A stretch of 64,000 bases of DNA from Thermococcus sp. JdFR-02 (GTDB taxonomy: Archaea > Methanobacteriota_B > Thermococci > Thermococcales > Thermococcaceae): the NCBI GenBank assembly GCA_002009975.1, contig MTLP01000032.1, positions 1-64,000 on the forward strand, read 5' to 3'. The notes below the pieces were generated by a model that saw only the letters and a list, made by a program, of their open reading frames with translations, did no database searches and was not told the DNA's origin. Below are positions 22,369-30,456 of this stretch, one piece after another. Made by a program: the position numbers and the translations under genes. Positions within the stretch are counted from its first letter, which is position 1. The number at the start of each line of letters is the position of its first letter.

Positions 22369-23424
22369 ATGCACATGACAATTTCTCCTGGACGGGTCAA
22401 TTTAATAGGTGAACATACAGATTATACCTATGGTTATGTAATGCCTATGGCGGTAAATCTTTACACAATACTCGAAGGAGAAAAAAACGAAAAAATTGAG
22501 CTATATTCCGAAGTATTTAATGAGAAAAAAGGCTTTGAATTATCAGAGCTTAAAAAAGAAAATTCATGGATAGACTATGTTAAAGGGATCTACAAGGTTC
22601 TCTTCGATAAAAACCTACATCCCAAAGGCATTAAAGGAAAAATTGGTGGCAATTTGCCAATAGGTTCAGGATTAAGCTCTTCAGCAAGTTTTGAATTAGC
22701 AATTATAGATTTTTTGAATGAAGTCTATGACTTAGGACTCTCGAGAAAGGAAATGGCGCTGCTTAGTCAAAAAGCCGAAAATGAGTTTGTTGGTGTCCCC
22801 TGTGGAATAATGGATCAATTTGTTATAGCATTAGGAAAAGAAGGGAGAGCTATATTCCTAGATACAGAAACTCTTGAATATGAATACATAACCATTCCAA
22901 AAGACGCTCAAATTTTTGTCTTTTATACCGGAGTCAAAAGAGAGTTAGCAGATTCTGCCTATGCTGAAAGGAAAAAAATTGCAGAGAGGGTGCTCAAACG
23001 CTTGAATAAAACGTCATCAAAATATGTTGGTGAAAAAGAGCTGAAAGGATTGCCAAGATTTTATAAAAAACGTTTTGGCTATATAATTCGGGAAAATGAA
23101 CGTGTTTTAAAAGCAAGAGATGCCTTAAAAAACAATGATTTGGAGAGTTTTGGCAAAATACTAACCGATGCACATTGGGATTTGGCAAAAAACTATGAGG
23201 TTAGCTGTGGAGAATTGGACTTCTTTGTGACAAGAGCATTAAAACTTGGAGCTTATGGAGCGAGATTAACTGGCGCTGGCTTTGGAGGAGCCGCGATTGC
23301 AGTAGTTGAGAGGGAAAAAGCCCAAGAAATAGCGGAAAAAATTCTGGATGAATACTTAAAATCTTTCCATTGGAAGGCTCGCTATTTTTTAGTTGAAGCC
23401 TCTGATGGTGTTAAAACTCTCTAG
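22369..23424 (+). CDS. galK: Galactokinase
   Basis: [34 protein letters not shown]. Confidence 0.96.
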
Positions 23425-23433
23425 GGTGATTTT

Positions 23434-24513
23434 ATGCATGCTTTAATATTCCACGCGAACTTGCAGTATGCTGAAATTCCAAAAAGTGAAATTTCACGGG
23501 TGATTGACAAATCATACACCCCAACCATTAATAAGCTCTTAAAGAATGAAGTGCCGTTTGCCTTGAACATAACAGGGTTCTCCCTTCAATTTCTGCCAAA
23601 TTCGTTAATAGAAACGATAAAAGAAGGAATAGAGAGCAATTTGATCGAGATTACTGGAACAGCTTTTACACATGCAATTTTGCCCCTTTTGCCTTTAGAG
23701 AGGATTGAAGCTCAAATTGTTAAGGACAGAGAGACAAAGGAAGGAGTTCTCGAAGTATCTCCAAAGAATTTTTGGCTTCCAGAGTTAGCTTACGATCCAG
23801 TAATTCCTGCTATTTTGAAGGATAACGGTTACGATGAAGTATTTATTGACGGAGAAGCTATACTCTTCTCAAACATTCCAAACACCGCTATAAAAACCAT
23901 CAAACCTCTCTATCCCCACTTGATAAAAGCTCAAAGGGGTAAAAAGCCGATTTATTTAAACTATCTTTTGGGCTTAAGAGAGCTCAAAAATGCCATAAAA
24001 CTGGTATTTGAAGGGAAGATTATTCTTGAGGGAGTTAAAGAGATAGTCGGAATTCCTGTGTGGGTGGCTATAAACACGGCTGTCATGCTCGGAGTTGGTG
24101 GCTTTCCATTAATGAGCATCAAAAAAGTAGCGAACTGGATTAAAGGACTGGACAATATTATCCTCTATGGCACAGATTTAGAGTTTTATGGATATAGAGA
24201 TATTGCAGGCTATATTTTAAAAATTGAGAGACTTTTGAAGCTTATAGAGGAGCTTAATGCTGAGATAGTTTTCCCAAGCAAATTAAAACTCAACAAAAAG
24301 CGTTTTTATTTAAAAACCTGTAGCTGGGCACCGGATAAAAGCTTAGACCTCTGGAGGAAAGATGAAGATAATAGAAGGTTAAATGAGCTTTCTTGGGAAA
24401 TACACTCTTTCTTAGCTGAAAATAGTGATGCCCGAGGATGGGAGCCTTTACATGAGCGTAGATTAGATGCTTTTAAAGCCATTTATAAAGCTTGGAGGGA
24501 GAAAAATGGATAA
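23434..24513 (+). CDS. GH57 alpha-galactosidase (Pyrococcus GalA type)
   Basis: HANLQYAE, WLPELAY, GTDLEF, SWAPD, AENSDARGWEP; follows galK. Confidence 0.88.
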   Translation: MHALIFHANLQYAEIPKSEISRVIDKSYTPTINKLLKNEVPFALNITGFSLQFLPNSLIETIKEGIESNLIEITGTAFTHAILPLLPLERIEAQIVKDRETKEGVLEVSPKNFWLPELAYDPVIPAILKDNGYDEVFIDGEAILFSNIPNTAIKTIKPLYPHLIKAQRGKKPIYLNYLLGLRELKNAIKLVFEGKIILEGVKEIVGIPVWVAINTAVMLGVGGFPLMSIKKVANWIKGLDNIILYGTDLEFYGYRDIAGYILKIERLLKLIEELNAEIVFPSKLKLNKKRFYLKTCSWAPDKSLDLWRKDEDNRRLNELSWEIHSFLAENSDARGWEPLHERRLDAFKAIYKAWREKNG

Positions 24514-28157: not shown

Positions 28158-29420
28158 TTATAGTTCCAATCCATACCTCCCAACCAGTTCATCGCTTATT
28201 ATTTTTCTCTCTGCTATTTCCCCATAAACGTGAGCACTCTTTCTTGGTTTTCTCTCAAAGGTTTCAAAGTTGACCTCAACCAATCCAAATCTCGGCTCAA
28301 ATCCTTCAGCCCATTCAAAGTTGTCCATGAAAGACCAATAGAAATAACCTCTAACGTCATAGCCCTCACTTAAGGCTTTATGAACGTACTGCAAATGCTG
28401 AATTATAAACTCTATTCTCCATTCATCGTCAAGAGTTGCTATTCCGTTTTCCGTTATATAAATCGGCTTTTCATAGCGGTCTTGAACCCTTGTTACTGCT
28501 TCATAAATTCCCTTAGGATAGACACTCCAGCCCATTAACGTTTTTCTCTTACTTAGATCAGCTAAGCTTACTTCTAAAAAGAGGTTAAATGGATTCCAAG
28601 AGTGCTTAATCTCATGAACTGTATAATAGTTAATCCCAATAAAATCAACATCACTCTTAGGAACTTTGTAAGTTTTTATAGGCGTCCTAACTTTGCCGCT
28701 CCAGATTGCATCTAAAAAGTACCAGTTGAAAAGGTTGTCTGCTTTTTCCTTAGCTTTAATATCTGCTTTGCTTTCACTTGCAGGTTTCATAATTGGAATA
28801 TTCTTCACAATACCAACTTGAACTTTTTTGGACTTTAAGATCTCGTAAGCAATCGCATGTGCCCTTAAAAGATTTGCCTCAATTTTGCCAGCCCTTAAGG
28901 GATTCCTAATGAAAGGGGGCCAGTAACCTTGAATATATCCTGTAGTTACATAAACCATTGGCTCGTTAAAAGTTGCAAAGAGATTAACACCTTTTAGCTC
29001 TGCGATGCTTTCAACATATTTCTCCCAATACTTCAAGTTCTCCTCCTTTGCAAAGCCCCCTTTTTTCATAAACCACAGCGGGCTCGTAAAATGATGTAAA
29101 GTGATCATTGGAACAATATTATTCTCGTTAAGCAAATTAACGATTTCTTGATACCTTTGTATTGCTTCTTCGTTTATTTCGTTCTCTCTCGGAAAAATTC
29201 TGCTCCACTCAATAGAAAAGCGGTAAGCATTGTAGTTGAGCTCTGTCATAAGCTTAATATCCTCCCTATAAAGCTCCCAGTGATTGCAGGCTTTTCCAGA
29301 TTTGTACTTTAATTTTCCGCTTTGCTCATAGAACCACCAGTCGTTGTGAATGTTGTCCCCCTCAACTTGGTGTGAAGATGTTGCAGTACCAAAGAGAAAG
29401 TTATCTGGAAACTTAAGCAT
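28158..29420 (-). CDS. GH1 beta-glycosidase
   Basis: FLFGTATSSHQVEG, TFNEP acid/base, ITENG nucleophile, DNFEWAEG. Confidence 0.95.
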   Translation of the reverse strand: MLKFPDNFLFGTATSSHQVEGDNIHNDWWFYEQSGKLKYKSGKACNHWELYREDIKLMTELNYNAYRFSIEWSRIFPRENEINEEAIQRYQEIVNLLNENNIVPMITLHHFTSPLWFMKKGGFAKEENLKYWEKYVESIAELKGVNLFATFNEPMVYVTTGYIQGYWPPFIRNPLRAGKIEANLLRAHAIAYEILKSKKVQVGIVKNIPIMKPASESKADIKAKEKADNLFNWYFLDAIWSGKVRTPIKTYKVPKSDVDFIGINYYTVHEIKHSWNPFNLFLEVSLADLSKRKTLMGWSVYPKGIYEAVTRVQDRYEKPIYITENGIATLDDEWRIEFIIQHLQYVHKALSEGYDVRGYFYWSFMDNFEWAEGFEPRFGLVEVNFETFERKPRKSAHVYGEIAERKIISDELVGRYGLEL

Positions 29421-29472
29421 TTAAGACACCAAGTCTTATATTACTTTAGCTCCAAATTAAAGTTGTGGTAAT

Positions 29473-30456
29473 ATGAGAGAGCTTCGCTATAATCCCCTAA
29501 CAGGTCAATGGATAATGGTTTCAGCTGTTAGGAAGAAAAGACCATGGCGACCAAAAAATTTTTGTCCTTTTTGCCCAGGAAGCGAAGAAACCGGTTATGG
29601 CTGGGAAGTTTTAATTTTACCTAATAAGTTCCCAATGCTTGATTTTAAAGCTAAAAGACCTGAAAGTGATAAATTTTACAAAAAAGCTAGAGCAATTGGA
29701 CAGTGTAGTGTGATTGTAGAAACGCCAGAACACGATTTGAATGATTTAGATGAGCTGTCTCTAGAGCAGATGATTAAGGTTGTGAAGCTTTGGAGAGACA
29801 TAACTCAAAAGTTCATTGAGAATGAGAAAATAGCCTATTTAGCGATTTTCAGAAATAAAGGTGAAGAAATTGGAGTTAGCTTAACCCATCCACACGGACA
29901 GCTCTATGCTTTGCCTTTCATTCCTTTAAAAGCTCGACTAAAGATTGAGAACTCAAGGAAGTACTTTAAGCGATTTAAAGAGTGTCTTTTCTGCAGCATT
30001 TTAGAAGAAGAAAAGAAAGAAAGTGAGCGAATGATTTACGAAAACAGAGGTTTTGTTCTTTTCATGCCCTTCTTCGCAAACTGGACATTTGAGATCCATG
30101 TATACCCAAAAAGACATATCCAGTGGTTCACCCAACTAAATGAGAGAGAGCTTGAAGATCTGGCTGATATTTTAAGAGTGACAACTGGAACCCTAAATGC
30201 CCTTTTCAATGAGCAGATGCCATACGTTATGAACGTCTATCAAGCACCATTTAAGGGAAAATACGATTTCTATCATTTGCATATTGAGTTCTATCCTCTT
30301 TTGAGAGAGAAGGACAAACTAAAGTACGCTGCAGGAATTGAAATGGGAACTTGGGATTTCACATATGACGGTAATCCAGAAGAAAATGCTCAAAAGCTTA
30401 GAGAAGCCTGCAGAAAAATAGTAAAGAGACTAAAAACAAAGGGGAAATGTTACTAA
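29473..30456 (+). CDS. galT: Galactose-1-phosphate uridylyltransferase
   Basis: LRYNPL, CPFCPG, HPHGQ. Confidence 0.95.
   Translation: MRELRYNPLTGQWIMVSAVRKKRPWRPKNFCPFCPGSEETGYGWEVLILPNKFPMLDFKAKRPESDKFYKKARAIGQCSVIVETPEHDLNDLDELSLEQMIKVVKLWRDITQKFIENEKIAYLAIFRNKGEEIGVSLTHPHGQLYALPFIPLKARLKIENSRKYFKRFKECLFCSILEEEKKESERMIYENRGFVLFMPFFANWTFEIHVYPKRHIQWFTQLNERELEDLADILRVTTGTLNALFNEQMPYVMNVYQAPFKGKYDFYHLHIEFYPLLREKDKLKYAAGIEMGTWDFTYDGNPEENAQKLREACRKIVKRLKTKGKCY

What the first reader, a model, noticed from the sequence alone, without database searches (positions are those of the whole stretch)
22369..30456. Candidate undescribed alpha-GalNAc/galactosamine utilisation pathway
Seen: galK-GH57-MFS-deacetylase-GH4 form one tightly coupled operon (9-bp gap, 8- and 14-bp overlaps, TAATG junction), followed by GH1 and a divergent galT. 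Known: the Pyrococcus galactoside locus has galK, GH57, MFS and GH1. Thermococcales degrade chitobiose by first deacetylating the non-reducing GlcNAc (Dac) and then cleaving the free-amine sugar with a dedicated exo-glycosidase. Inference: a Dac-like enzyme plus GH4 inside the galactose operon, with no chitin genes nearby, suggests the same deacetylate-then-cleave logic for alpha-GalNAc glycans, feeding galactosamine to GalK/GalT. I know of no such archaeal route.
Basis: partly seen in the sequence, partly recalled or inferred. Interest (0 to 1): 0.8.

Follow-up and report, generated by a model that had tools for sequence, protein, structure and literature searches.

The report
Deacetylase–GH4 sugar cassette in galactose operon
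Some heat-loving archaea carry, inside their galactose-utilisation operon, a conserved transporter–deacetylase–glycosidase trio that probably strips the acetyl group from an N-acetyl-amino-sugar cap and then cuts the sugar off, a route whose substrate nobody has yet identified.

Summary
galK, GH57, MFS, a PIG-L/CE14 deacetylase and GH4 form one tightly coupled plus-strand operon. GH1 follows convergently and galT lies divergent to GH1.

The deacetylase is the genome's only PIG-L protein. It belongs to a clade separate from the characterised chitobiose deacetylases (Dac). The genome lacks chitinase, GlmA, GlmD and NagB.

GH4 occurs in 19 of 99 Thermococcales genomes. In all 19 the Dac-like gene sits directly upstream, in the same gal cluster. 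All 15 GH4-less gal clusters examined lack both genes and carry a different MFS variant. In one genome, MFS-Dac-GH4 was exchanged as a unit while galK, GH57 and GH1 kept the carrier lineage.

PIG-L/GH4 adjacency also occurs in Bathyarchaeia and Anaerolineae. E. coli ChbG/ChbF is a precedent for a GH4 enzyme that needs prior deacetylation.

GH4 is only 24-26% identical to ChbF and MelA and has an unusual C-T-G motif.

Best reading (0.6): a three-gene import, de-N-acetylate, cleave cassette for a HexNAc-capped glycoside, probably a galactoside.

Verdict: a new variant of a known logic, undescribed in the searched literature.

The parts
22188..22275 (-). tRNA-Leu(CAG). It bounds the galK upstream region, leaving 93 bp (22276-22368) for the operon promoter.
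   Evidence: ARAGORN. Sequence read.
22369..23424 (+). galK, galactokinase. First gene of the operon.
   Evidence: NCBIfam NF003006 galactokinase, 540 bits against a cut-off of 443. Pfam GHMP kinase and GalKase_gal_bdg domains.
23434..24513 (+). GH57 enzyme of the short archaeal alpha-galactosidase (GalA) type.
   Evidence: Pfam Glyco_hydro_57, 130.7 bits. 359 aa, 61-75% identical to cluster-linked GH57 genes in 33 other Thermococcales genomes. The GH57 alpha-galactosidase group is archaeal and about 362 aa, with one characterised member (PMC6037648, passages read).
24506..25849 (+). MFS permease, the carrier-specific variant (longest ORF starts at 24467). Proposed importer of the HexNAc-glycoside.
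   Evidence: Pfam MFS_1, 199 bits. The ATG at 24506 follows GGAGGG. 13 of 272 eligible columns are fixed differently between GH4-carrying and GH4-less clusters, and the tree split has support 100.
25836..26660 (+). Dac-like CE14/PIG-L zinc de-N-acetylase, a paralogue clade linked to GH4 (longest ORF starts at GTG 25827).
   Evidence: Pfam PIG-L, 108 bits. E 1e-95 to solved diacetylchitobiose deacetylases, with the metal triad, catalytic Asp and trans-subunit His conserved. Separate clade. Only PIG-L protein in the genome.
26660..27970 (+). GH4 NAD+/Mn2+-type glycosidase of an uncharacterised archaeal subgroup (motif G-L-C-T-G-Y). Proposed hydrolase of the de-N-acetylated hexosaminide.
   Evidence: Pfam GH4 N- and C-terminal domains. 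AlphaFold model pLDDT 94.9 with a GH4 fold. 26% identical to MelA and 24% to ChbF. CTG motif in all 20 Thermococcales ORFs scanned, including 2 MAG-contig duplicates.
28012..28033 (+). T-rich tract after the GH4 stop. Likely the operon's end.
   Evidence: Sequence read. This is an inference; archaeal terminators being oligo-T runs is recalled knowledge.
28158..29420 (-). GH1 beta-glycosidase, convergent to the operon.
   Evidence: Pfam Glyco_hydro_1, 321 bits. Present beside the cluster in both carriers and non-carriers.
29473..30456 (+). galT, galactose-1-phosphate uridylyltransferase, divergent from GH1.
   Evidence: TIGR00209, 182 bits against a cut-off of 102.1. Pfam GalP_UDP_transf N- and C-terminal domains.

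Best explanation
The last three genes of the galK operon (variant MFS permease, Dac-like CE14 de-N-acetylase, GH4 glycosidase) form one cassette. It adds a 'take up, de-N-acetylate, then cleave' step to the ordinary Thermococcales galactoside cluster.

Proposed order of events:
1. The permease imports a small glycoside whose non-reducing end is an N-acetylhexosamine.
2. The zinc deacetylase removes the acetyl group.
3. The NAD+/Mn2+-dependent GH4 enzyme cannot handle a 2-acetamido group but can handle a 2-amino group. It splits off the hexosamine by its oxidation-elimination mechanism.
4. The released aglycone, most likely galactose or a galactoside finished by GH57 or GH1, enters the Leloir enzymes GalK and GalT.
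5. The amino sugar is probably salvaged rather than burnt, because no GlcN-6-P deaminase is present.

What is shown: the gene anatomy, the conservation, the cassette behaviour, intact catalytic residues, and independence from the chitin pathway.

What is inferred: the order of reactions, the role of the permease, a galactose-containing aglycone, and the fate of the amine sugar.

What is open: GlcNAc versus GalNAc, and alpha versus beta linkage.
For: 1. The genes are translationally coupled.
2. Dac lies directly upstream of GH4 in 19 of 19 carrier genomes across 4 genera. None of the 32 loci holding a canonical Dac has a GH4.
3. In the Dac tree (53 rows), the 32 canonical Dacs lie on one side of a branch with SH-aLRT 100, and all 19 GH4-linked rows lie on the other side. 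Five genomes hold both kinds.
4. GlmA and GlmD occur only in those 5 of the 19 carriers. The window's genome has no GH18, GlmA, ChiA or NagB.
5. All 15 GH4-less gal clusters examined lack the pair. The MFS splits cleanly by presence of the pair (support 100). It has 13 of 272 eligible columns fixed differently, against 0 of 133 for galK, 3 of 174 for GH57 and 2 of 177 for GH1. 11 of the 13 lie in hydrophobic segments, and they include E to Q at position 151 and R to T at position 356.
6. In G036, galK, GH57 and GH1 are 90-91% identical to carrier loci. Its MFS is the non-carrier type (77% identical to L034) and Dac and GH4 are gone. The three genes therefore move together.
7. PIG-L adjoins related GH4 genes in 5 Bathyarchaeia and 2 Anaerolineae loci out of 78 examined. 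One of these is followed by a sugar ABC transporter.
8. Precedent: E. coli chbF (GH4) lies next to chbG and cleaves only the deacetylated substrate (annotation; PMC12791066 Discussion and PMC9402603 Introduction, passages read).
9. The Dac-like protein keeps the Zn triad, the catalytic Asp, the trans-subunit His and the acetyl pocket. The loop that contacts the reducing-end sugar (Gly255* in Pch-Dac) and the N-terminal arm differ in both GH4-linked clades (PMC9779004 passages).
10. GH4 has the invariant G-x-G-S, N-P, Cys168 and His198 residues and a confident GH4 fold.
Against: - No biochemical data exist for any member. The substrate is inferred from context only.
- The carriers form only two or three independent lineages plus one swap, so the counts overstate independence.
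- The closest non-Thermococcales GH4 relatives (3 Bathyarchaeia loci, 44-46% identity, CPG motif) have no PIG-L gene in the flanks fetched.
- 4 of 9 rows of the Bathyarchaeia CHE clade also lack one.
- GalK, GH57 and GH1 show little or no carrier-specific change, so a galactose-containing substrate is not demonstrated.
- No known catabolic route for the released amine sugar is present.
- The best NCBIfam match of GH4 is an alpha-galactosidase subfamily model (246 bits, below the cut-off of 486), so a neutral-sugar substrate is not excluded.
- The MFS is the most conserved protein of the cluster, which inflates the raw count of fixed differences. The normalised figure is still highest.
Confidence: 0.6

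Rival explanations
1. The substrate is an alpha-GalNAc-capped glycan. The Dac-like enzyme makes alpha-GalN. GH4 acts as an alpha-galactosaminidase. Free galactosamine is phosphorylated by GalK and passed to GalT. This is a special case of the best explanation.
For: - The cassette sits in the galactose operon.
- GH4's best family model is an alpha-galactosidase subfamily, and its H-x-x-E-Y region resembles MelA rather than ChbF.
- No GlcN-6-P deaminase is present, so a glucosamine-burning route is missing.
- Recalled only, not read here: a bacterial GalNAc deacetylase plus GH36 galactosaminidase pair (Flavonifractor plautii), Leloir enzymes accepting galactosamine in mammals, and an archaeal GalN-1-P acetyltransferase activity (Sulfolobus tokodaii ST0452).
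Against: - All catalytic and acetyl-pocket residues match the GlcNAc-acting Dacs, and no clade-specific change points to an axial O4.
- GalK has 0 of 133 carrier-specific columns.
- galT is outside the fetched stretch in 13 of the 18 related loci, though it is present elsewhere in 5 of 5 genomes tested.
- GH4 is only 26% identical to MelA.
Confidence: 0.2
2. The pair is an alternative chitobiose pathway. The MFS imports GlcNAc2, the Dac-like enzyme makes GlcN-GlcNAc, and GH4 replaces the GH35 exo-beta-glucosaminidase GlmA. This would be an unphosphorylated analogue of E. coli ChbG/ChbF.
For: - The Dac-like protein is 48-56% identical to canonical Dacs, with catalytic residues intact.
- 14 of 19 carriers have no GlmA, so GH4 could fill that role.
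- The best sequence matches of GH4 among solved structures are 6-phospho-beta-glucosidases.
- There is a ChbG/ChbF precedent.
Against: - The same 14 carriers lack GlmD.
- The window's genome also lacks chitinase and NagB, so glucosamine could not feed glycolysis by a known route.
- Five genomes keep both systems in different loci.
- The subunit-interface loop and N-terminal arm that hold the reducing-end GlcNAc differ from canonical Dacs.
- The cassette is always in the galactose cluster and never beside chitin genes.
Confidence: 0.1
3. There is no coupling. GH4 is simply a second alpha-galactosidase or glucosidase for neutral sugars. The Dac-like enzyme has an unrelated job, for example deacetylating free GlcNAc or a thiol or cofactor precursor, as other PIG-L enzymes do.
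For: - The NCBIfam alpha-galactosidase subfamily model is the best hit.
- Public annotations call relatives alpha-galactosidase or alpha-glucosidase.
- Most GH4 relatives examined (71 of 78 non-Thermococcales loci) have no PIG-L gene nearby.
- NCBIfam's best hit for the deacetylase is BshB1, below its cut-off.
Against: - The TAATG coupling and adjacency in 19 of 19 carriers.
- The joint loss and swap together with the MFS in G036.
- Recurrence of the pairing in distant lineages.
- The residue after the catalytic Cys is Thr. It is His in MelA and in 67 of the 86 non-Thermococcales GH4-like ORFs scanned (MelA).
- The cluster already has a GH57 alpha-galactosidase.
Confidence: 0.15

Closest known systems
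Thermococcales chitin pathway: diacetylchitobiose deacetylase (Dac, CE14) followed by exo-beta-D-glucosaminidase GlmA (GH35)
   Same: A cytoplasmic CE14 zinc deacetylase acts first on the non-reducing HexNAc. An exo-hydrolase specific for the free amine then cleaves. The window's enzyme matches solved Dacs at E 1e-95, with the metal triad, catalytic Asp and trans-subunit His conserved.
   Different: - The hydrolase is GH4, not GH35.
- The deacetylase is in a separate clade.
- The transporter is an MFS rather than the ABC system next to canonical Dac.
- No ChiA, GlmA or GlmD is present in 14 of 19 carriers.
- The genes sit in the galactose operon.
E. coli chb operon: ChbG monodeacetylase plus ChbF (GH4) monoacetylchitobiose-6-phosphate hydrolase
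   Same: A deacetylase gene lies adjacent to a GH4 gene, and the GH4 enzyme needs the 2-amino rather than the 2-acetamido sugar (PMC12791066 and PMC9402603 passages).
   Different: - ChbG is not a PIG-L/CE14 protein (YdjC family is recalled knowledge).
- The substrate is PTS-phosphorylated. Here the transporter is an MFS and there is no PTS gene in the locus.
- ChbF is 24% identical, with motif C-N-I-P against C-T-G-Y here.
Core Thermococcales galactoside cluster galK - GH57 alpha-galactosidase (GalA type) - MFS / GH1 / galT
   Same: All five genes are present in the same order and orientation. GH57 is 61-75% identical across the order.
   Different: The window's version adds Dac-like and GH4 after the MFS. 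Its MFS has 13 fixed substitutions.
E. coli MelA, GH4 alpha-galactosidase
   Same: Same family and fold, the same Cys/His metal-ligand positions and an H-x-x-E-Y region.
   Different: - 26% identity.
- Motif C-H-S-V against C-T-G-Y.
- Below the NCBIfam alpha-galactosidase cut-off (246 against 486 bits).
Bacterial GalNAc deacetylase plus GH36 galactosaminidase (Flavonifractor plautii, blood-group A conversion), and Sulfolobus solfataricus CE14 de-N-acetylase SSO2901 acting with an alpha-glucosidase. Both are recalled only; neither paper was read here.
   Same: Deacetylate-then-cleave logic applied to alpha-linked HexNAc.
   Different: Different hydrolase families. In the bacterial case the deacetylase family also differs. 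No GH4 is involved, and there is no operon with a permease and Leloir genes.

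Membership tests
CE14 / PIG-L (LmbE-like) zinc de-N-acetylases | PIG-L domain above Pfam's gathering score | tested here: met
   PF02585, 108.3 bits against a cut-off of 28.2.
CE14 / PIG-L (LmbE-like) zinc de-N-acetylases | His-Asp-His metal triad, catalytic Asp, and the catalytic His supplied by the neighbouring subunit (Pch-Dac His40/Asp43/His151, Asp42, His259*) | tested here: met
   The P-H-P-D-D, H-P-D-H and C-terminal H-[VI]-T-P-F motifs are aligned and conserved. 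Residue roles come from PMC9779004 passages.
Diacetylchitobiose deacetylase (Dac) orthologue group of Thermococcales | Falls in the clade of the characterised Dacs | tested here: not met
   The 32 canonical Dacs lie on one side of a branch with SH-aLRT 100, and the window's protein lies on the other side. It is 48-56% identical to canonical Dacs, 74-79% to the g2/g6 GH4-linked Dacs and 55-60% to the g4 GH4-linked Dacs.
Diacetylchitobiose deacetylase (Dac) orthologue group of Thermococcales | Genomic association with the chitin set (about 480-aa GH1, ABC transporter, GlmD, GlmA, ChiA) | tested here: not met
   None of these is near the gene. GlmA, ChiA and GH18 are absent from the genome, and GlmD is absent.
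Diacetylchitobiose deacetylase (Dac) orthologue group of Thermococcales | De-N-acetylation of the non-reducing GlcNAc of GlcNAc2 | not testable with these tools
   Needs an enzyme assay.
Glycoside hydrolase family 4 | GH4 N- and C-terminal domains and the GH4 fold | tested here: met
   PF02056, 96.5 bits, and PF11975, 120.8 bits. Model pLDDT 94.9. All top Foldseek hits are GH4 structures with query-normalised TM-score (TMq) 0.75-0.82.
Glycoside hydrolase family 4 | NAD+-binding G-x-G-S near the N-terminus and the Cys/His Mn2+ ligands | tested here: met
   G7, S10, C168, N197 and H198 are invariant in 24 aligned sequences. They align with the corresponding residues of solved GH4 enzymes, MelA and ChbF. 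The assignment of roles is recalled knowledge.
GH4 alpha-galactosidase (MelA type) | Reaches the NCBIfam PRK15076 cut-off and has the C-H-S motif after the catalytic Cys | tested here: not met
   246 bits against a cut-off of 486. Motif C-T-G-Y against MelA's C-H-S-V, with 26% identity.
Chb-type deacetylase/GH4 system (E. coli) | A deacetylase gene adjacent to the GH4 gene | tested here: met
   TAATG junction. Adjacent in 19 of 19 carriers. E. coli chbG-chbF are adjacent.
Chb-type deacetylase/GH4 system (E. coli) | PTS uptake, a phosphorylated substrate and a ChbF-like C-N-x-P enzyme | tested here: not met
   The locus has an MFS permease and no PTS gene. 24% identity to ChbF and a different motif. 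A genome-wide PTS search was not run.
Leloir-type galactoside cluster of Thermococcales | galK, GH57, MFS, GH1 and galT together | tested here: met
   The same set is present in 15 of 15 GH4-less loci examined.

The most novel reading that the evidence does not exclude
The cassette is an archaeal route for alpha-linked N-acetylgalactosamine (or N-acetylglucosamine) caps on galactosides, such as mucin- or blood-group-A-like or archaeal cell-surface glycans. In this reading GH4 would be the first member of its family to act as an unphosphorylated hexosaminidase (alpha-galactosaminidase). The freed galactosamine would be phosphorylated by GalK and salvaged into UDP-GalN(Ac). The galactose operon would then serve as both a carbon-gaining and an amino-sugar-salvaging system, with a permease variant tuned to the capped substrate.
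Probability: 0.2. Interest if true: 0.75.

Novelty: new variant of a known kind. Interest (0 to 1): 0.6.

Why it matters
It points to a GH4 specificity that is not yet on record. It also points to a second, functionally distinct clade of the archaeal CE14 deacetylases, which so far are known only from chitin degradation.

It defines a compact three-gene cassette whose substrate can be found with a handful of enzyme assays using thermostable proteins.

It offers a reason why 14 of the 19 carrier genomes keep a 'Dac' without any chitin pathway. It also warns against annotating these genes as diacetylchitobiose deacetylase or alpha-galactosidase.

If the substrate proves to be an alpha-HexNAc-capped galactoside, the enzymes would interest glycan-remodelling work. 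They would also show what glycans hydrothermal heterotrophs feed on.

Tried and rejected
- **Thermococcales glycolytic regulator motif.** The pattern TATCAC-N5-GTGATA (recalled) was searched with up to 2 mismatches. It gave 2 matches, neither in the promoter, against 1.9 expected by chance. This says nothing about regulation.
- **Papers not held.** Iacono 2019 (PMC6328758) and Verma & Mahadevan 2012 (PMC3430350) could not be read. My first recollection that the Sulfolobus partner enzyme was a GH4 could not be verified, and on reflection it is probably wrong, so I do not use it.
- **Literature searches that found no description of this pair:**
  - de-N-acetylase + GH4 + Sulfolobus solfataricus
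  - SSO2901
  - alpha-glucosaminidase + GH4
  - GH4 + Thermococcus + alpha-galactosidase + GH57
  - CE14 + GH4 + archaea (48 papers, 15 listed, only titles and abstract starts seen)
  - Thermococcales + GH4 + deacetylase (0 papers)
- **Earlier findings of this scan.** Nothing returned.
- **RNA evidence.** Contigs from two metatranscriptome libraries of one sample bridge MFS, Dac and GH4 (25623-28025, about 96% identical). A DNA run of the same sample has similar depth, and contigs cannot show a transcript. This does not count as evidence of expression.
- **Clade-specific residues in the Dac core.** Twelve columns differ, mostly conservatively. None speaks to GlcNAc versus GalNAc.
- **Foldseek of the GH4 model.** All solved GH4 structures are about equally distant (18-26% identity), so it gives no hint of specificity.
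- **Extra ORFs in gaps of related loci.** These are a roughly 735-aa secreted protein with a weak Peptidase_C13 hit, an archaeal ATPase, an IspD-like gene and a glycerophosphotransferase. They are not consistently linked and say nothing about the substrate.
- **Weak GH42 hit in the genome.** A 29.8-bit hit in a 397-aa frame. It is not GlmA by tblastn.
- **Complex prediction.** Not run, because no physical binding is claimed.

Full report
**Observation**

- galK: NF003006, 540 bits.
- GH57: 130.7 bits.
- MFS_1: 199 bits.
- PIG-L: 108 bits.
- GH4 N- and C-terminal domains.
- GH1: 321 bits.
- galT: TIGR00209, 182 bits.

Reading the junctions gives a 9-bp gap between galK and GH57. With the Shine-Dalgarno-preceded ATGs at 24506 and 25836, it gives the 8-bp and 14-bp overlaps. 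It also gives TAATG at the deacetylase/GH4 junction.

A tRNA-Leu(CAG) at 22188-22275 leaves 93 bp upstream of galK. A T-rich tract follows the GH4 stop. GH1 is convergent to the operon and galT is divergent from GH1.

The upstream neighbours are a BlaI-like repressor, an M48 peptidase, a cytidine deaminase, glycosyltransferases and Cas6. There are no chitin genes.

**What the two odd genes are**

The deacetylase matches the solved Thermococcales diacetylchitobiose deacetylases at E 1e-95 (8bgo, 3wl4, 3we7). It keeps the His-Asp-His zinc triad, the catalytic Asp, the acetyl pocket and the catalytic His lent by the neighbouring subunit (roles from PMC9779004 passages). It is the only PIG-L protein in a 99.99%-complete genome.

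GH4 has the invariant G-x-G-S, N-P, Cys168 and His198 residues and folds confidently as GH4 (pLDDT 94.9). It is equally far from every solved or named relative:
- 18-26% identical to PDB chains.
- 26% identical to E. coli MelA and 24% to ChbF.
- 246 bits on the NCBIfam alpha-galactosidase subfamily model, whose cut-off is 486.

After the catalytic Cys it reads T-G-Y. MelA has H-S-V there and ChbF has N-I-P. All 20 Thermococcales ORFs scanned (17 genome loci, the window-genome relative set, plus 2 MAG-contig duplicates) read C-T-G. The three nearest Bathyarchaeia read C-P-G. Most of the more distant relatives read C-H-G, C-H-E or C-H-Q.

**Distribution**

The order holds 99 genomes, with these counts:
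- GH4 in 19 (16 of the 80 high-quality genomes).
- PIG-L in 49.
- GlmA in 33 (query identical to PDB 5gsm).
- GlmD in 32.
- The GH57 in 36.

In all 18 other GH4 carriers the Dac-like gene lies directly upstream of GH4, within galK-GH57-MFS-Dac-GH4 with GH1 beside it. Three of these loci are short contigs that show only part of the cluster.

None of the 32 loci with another Dac has a GH4. There, Dac sits next to a GH1 of about 480 aa (31 of 32 loci). In the two loci examined further, an ABC transporter, GlmD, GlmA and ChiA lie nearby.

A tree of 53 Dac rows puts the 32 canonical Dacs on one side of a branch with SH-aLRT 100. The rows are 19 GH4-linked, 32 other and 2 distant PIG-L proteins as outgroup. 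Two further distant hits, L074 and L075, and a 24-bit fragment in G068 were left out. The GH4-linked rows form two groups on the other side, 10 rows including the window and 9 rows of genus g4. The deep root is unsure because the outgroup branch is long.

Five carriers (G015, G018, G034, G039, G047) hold both kinds of Dac, and only these five have GlmA and GlmD. The other 14, including the window's genome, have neither. The window's genome also lacks GH18 and NagB, and tblastn finds no ChiA or GlmA. The pair is therefore not part of the chitin pathway.

**The cassette**

All 15 GH4-less gal clusters that I fetched have galK-GH57-MFS, GH1 and galT and nothing else between MFS and GH1. There are about 17 such genomes.

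The MFS tree splits carriers from non-carriers with support 100. The galK, GH57 and GH1 trees each need two changes (FastTree).

The table counts columns where both groups have at least 90% consensus (eligible columns) and how many of those differ between the groups.

| Protein | Eligible columns | Differing | Share |
|---|---|---|---|
| MFS | 272 | 13 | 4.8% |
| GH57 | 174 | 3 | 1.7% |
| GH1 | 177 | 2 | 1.1% |
| galK | 133 | 0 | 0% |

Eleven of the 13 MFS positions lie in hydrophobic segments. They include E151Q and R356T.

The telling case is G036 (L163). Its galK, GH57 and GH1 are 90-91% identical to those of carrier loci L034 and L035, and it has the same C69 and CoADR flank. Its MFS is only 77% identical to L034's, about 85% identical to non-carrier MFSs, and carries the non-carrier residue at 12 of the 13 positions. 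Dac and GH4 are absent. MFS, Dac and GH4 were thus exchanged as one unit.

The carriers amount to only two or three independent lineages plus this swap, so the counts should not be read as independent trials.

**Beyond the order**

I fetched 78 non-Thermococcales loci with relatives of this GH4, with flanks of at most 6 kb and several short contigs.
- A PIG-L gene lies next to GH4 in 5 Bathyarchaeia loci. It is directly downstream, and the GH4 motif is C-H-E.
- A PIG-L gene lies within the flanks in 2 Anaerolineae loci.
- A weak 32-bit hit in L140 was not counted.

In a FastTree of 97 rows, the Thermococcales clade, the C-P-G Bathyarchaeia and the C-H-E Bathyarchaeia fall in one group of 31 rows (support 85), of which 23 are PIG-L-linked. 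In the remaining 64 rows, 2 are linked. MelA and ChbF lie far outside.

In Anaerolineae locus L123 the order is PIG-L, GH4, sugar-binding protein and two permeases. The Bathyarchaeial neighbours (M55 peptidase, Amidohydro_2) tell nothing about the sugar.

**Mechanism**

GH4 enzymes oxidise C3 and eliminate across C1-C2, with Mn2+ at O2/O3. This is recalled knowledge.

For the one GH4 known to act in amino-sugar catabolism, E. coli ChbF, the substrate must first be de-N-acetylated by the neighbouring gene's product. The sources are the RefSeq annotation, the PMC12791066 Discussion and the PMC9402603 Introduction (passages read).

Thermococcales already use the same logic with Dac and GlmA.

I therefore read the cassette as uptake by the variant MFS, de-N-acetylation of a non-reducing HexNAc, and then GH4 cleavage of the hexosaminide.

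In the Dac-like protein the catalytic core is conserved, but the parts that build the outer subsite have changed:
- The loop before the trans-subunit His reads P-[G/S/A]-[L/M/I]-F-[Y/L]-H in canonical Dacs. It reads L-P-K-L-L-[I/L]-H or L-P-T-V-L-F-H in the two GH4-linked groups.
- In Pch-Dac the carbonyl of Gly255* in that loop binds O1 of the reducing GlcNAc.
- The N-terminal arm also differs (PMC9779004).

This fits the same sugar in the catalytic subsite with a different aglycone. The operon context suggests that the aglycone is galactose or a galactoside, which is an inference. Since no GlmD or NagB is present, the amine sugar is more likely salvaged than burnt, which is also an inference.

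**What remains open**

Nothing here decides GlcNAc against GalNAc, or alpha against beta.
- The conserved Dac core leans towards GlcNAc.
- GH4's nearest family model and its MelA-like H-x-x-E-Y region lean towards an alpha-galacto substrate.

Both hints are weak.

GalK shows no carrier-specific column. galT lies within the fetched stretch in only 5 of the 18 related loci, though it is present elsewhere in 5 of 5 genomes tested.

Contigs from two metatranscriptome libraries cover the cassette, but a DNA run of the same sample has equal depth. This is not evidence of expression.

**Comparison and novelty**

The logic (deacetylase first, then a hydrolase for the free amine) is known from the Thermococcales chitin pathway and from E. 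coli chb.

These points are new:
- The partnership of a CE14 paralogue with an uncharacterised GH4 subgroup.
- Their union with a variant MFS as a mobile three-gene cassette.
- The cassette's fixed place in the galactose operon.
- Its independence from chitin genes.

Public records call the GH4 'family 4 glycosyl hydrolase', 'hypothetical protein' or 'alpha-galactosidase'. Six literature searches found no description of the pair. The library lacks most subscription journals, so this is not proof of absence.

**Verdict**

This is a real, conserved feature and a new variant of a known kind. Confidence in the general mechanism is 0.6. Confidence in the alpha-GalNAc version is 0.2. Interest is 0.6.

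Noticed in passing
window 22188-22275 (-): A tRNA-Leu(CAG) gene lies between the BlaI-like repressor gene and galK. It explains a depth spike and many loose contig ends at this place in metagenome runs.
   Followed up: yes
window 20943-22094 (-): A Penicillinase_R (BlaI-like) repressor gene and an M48 peptidase gene form a BlaI/BlaR-like pair, divergent from the gal operon. Any link to the operon's regulation is unknown.
   Followed up: no
window 16974-17744 (+): A Cas6 gene (Cas6 N- and C-terminal domains). Any neighbouring CRISPR array or other cas genes were not looked for.
   Followed up: no
window 17680-19965: A GT4-family glycosyltransferase gene (-) and a HAD-hydrolase/GT2 fusion gene (+), followed by a DUF2304 gene. 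This may be a glycan-synthesis group a few kb upstream of the gal operon.
   Followed up: no
window 14366-15490 (+): A second MFS permease gene (374 aa), 7 kb upstream of the operon.
   Followed up: no
L163 (G036:C1:1675500-1694500): This genome has a gal cluster whose galK, GH57 and GH1 are 90-91% identical to carrier loci. Its MFS is the non-carrier type and Dac and GH4 are absent. It is a natural swap of the three-gene cassette.
   Followed up: yes
L022:12444-14678, L025:14063-16258, L026:5732-7939, L033:4308-6509: A secreted protein of about 735 aa with a weak Peptidase_C13 hit lies between GH1 and galT or the C69 peptidase gene in several carrier loci. It is absent from the window.
   Followed up: partly
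window 28024-28025: A related strain is about 96% identical and was seen in DNA and RNA libraries of one marine-sediment sample. Its contigs all break or diverge just after the GH4 stop, so the stretch between GH4 and GH1 differs there.
   Followed up: no
L084:3812-8900 and L086:3868-7989: In Bathyarchaeia the GH4/PIG-L pair lies near an M55 D-aminopeptidase gene. In L084 it is followed by an Amidohydro_2 gene. This context differs from the galactose operon.
   Followed up: partly
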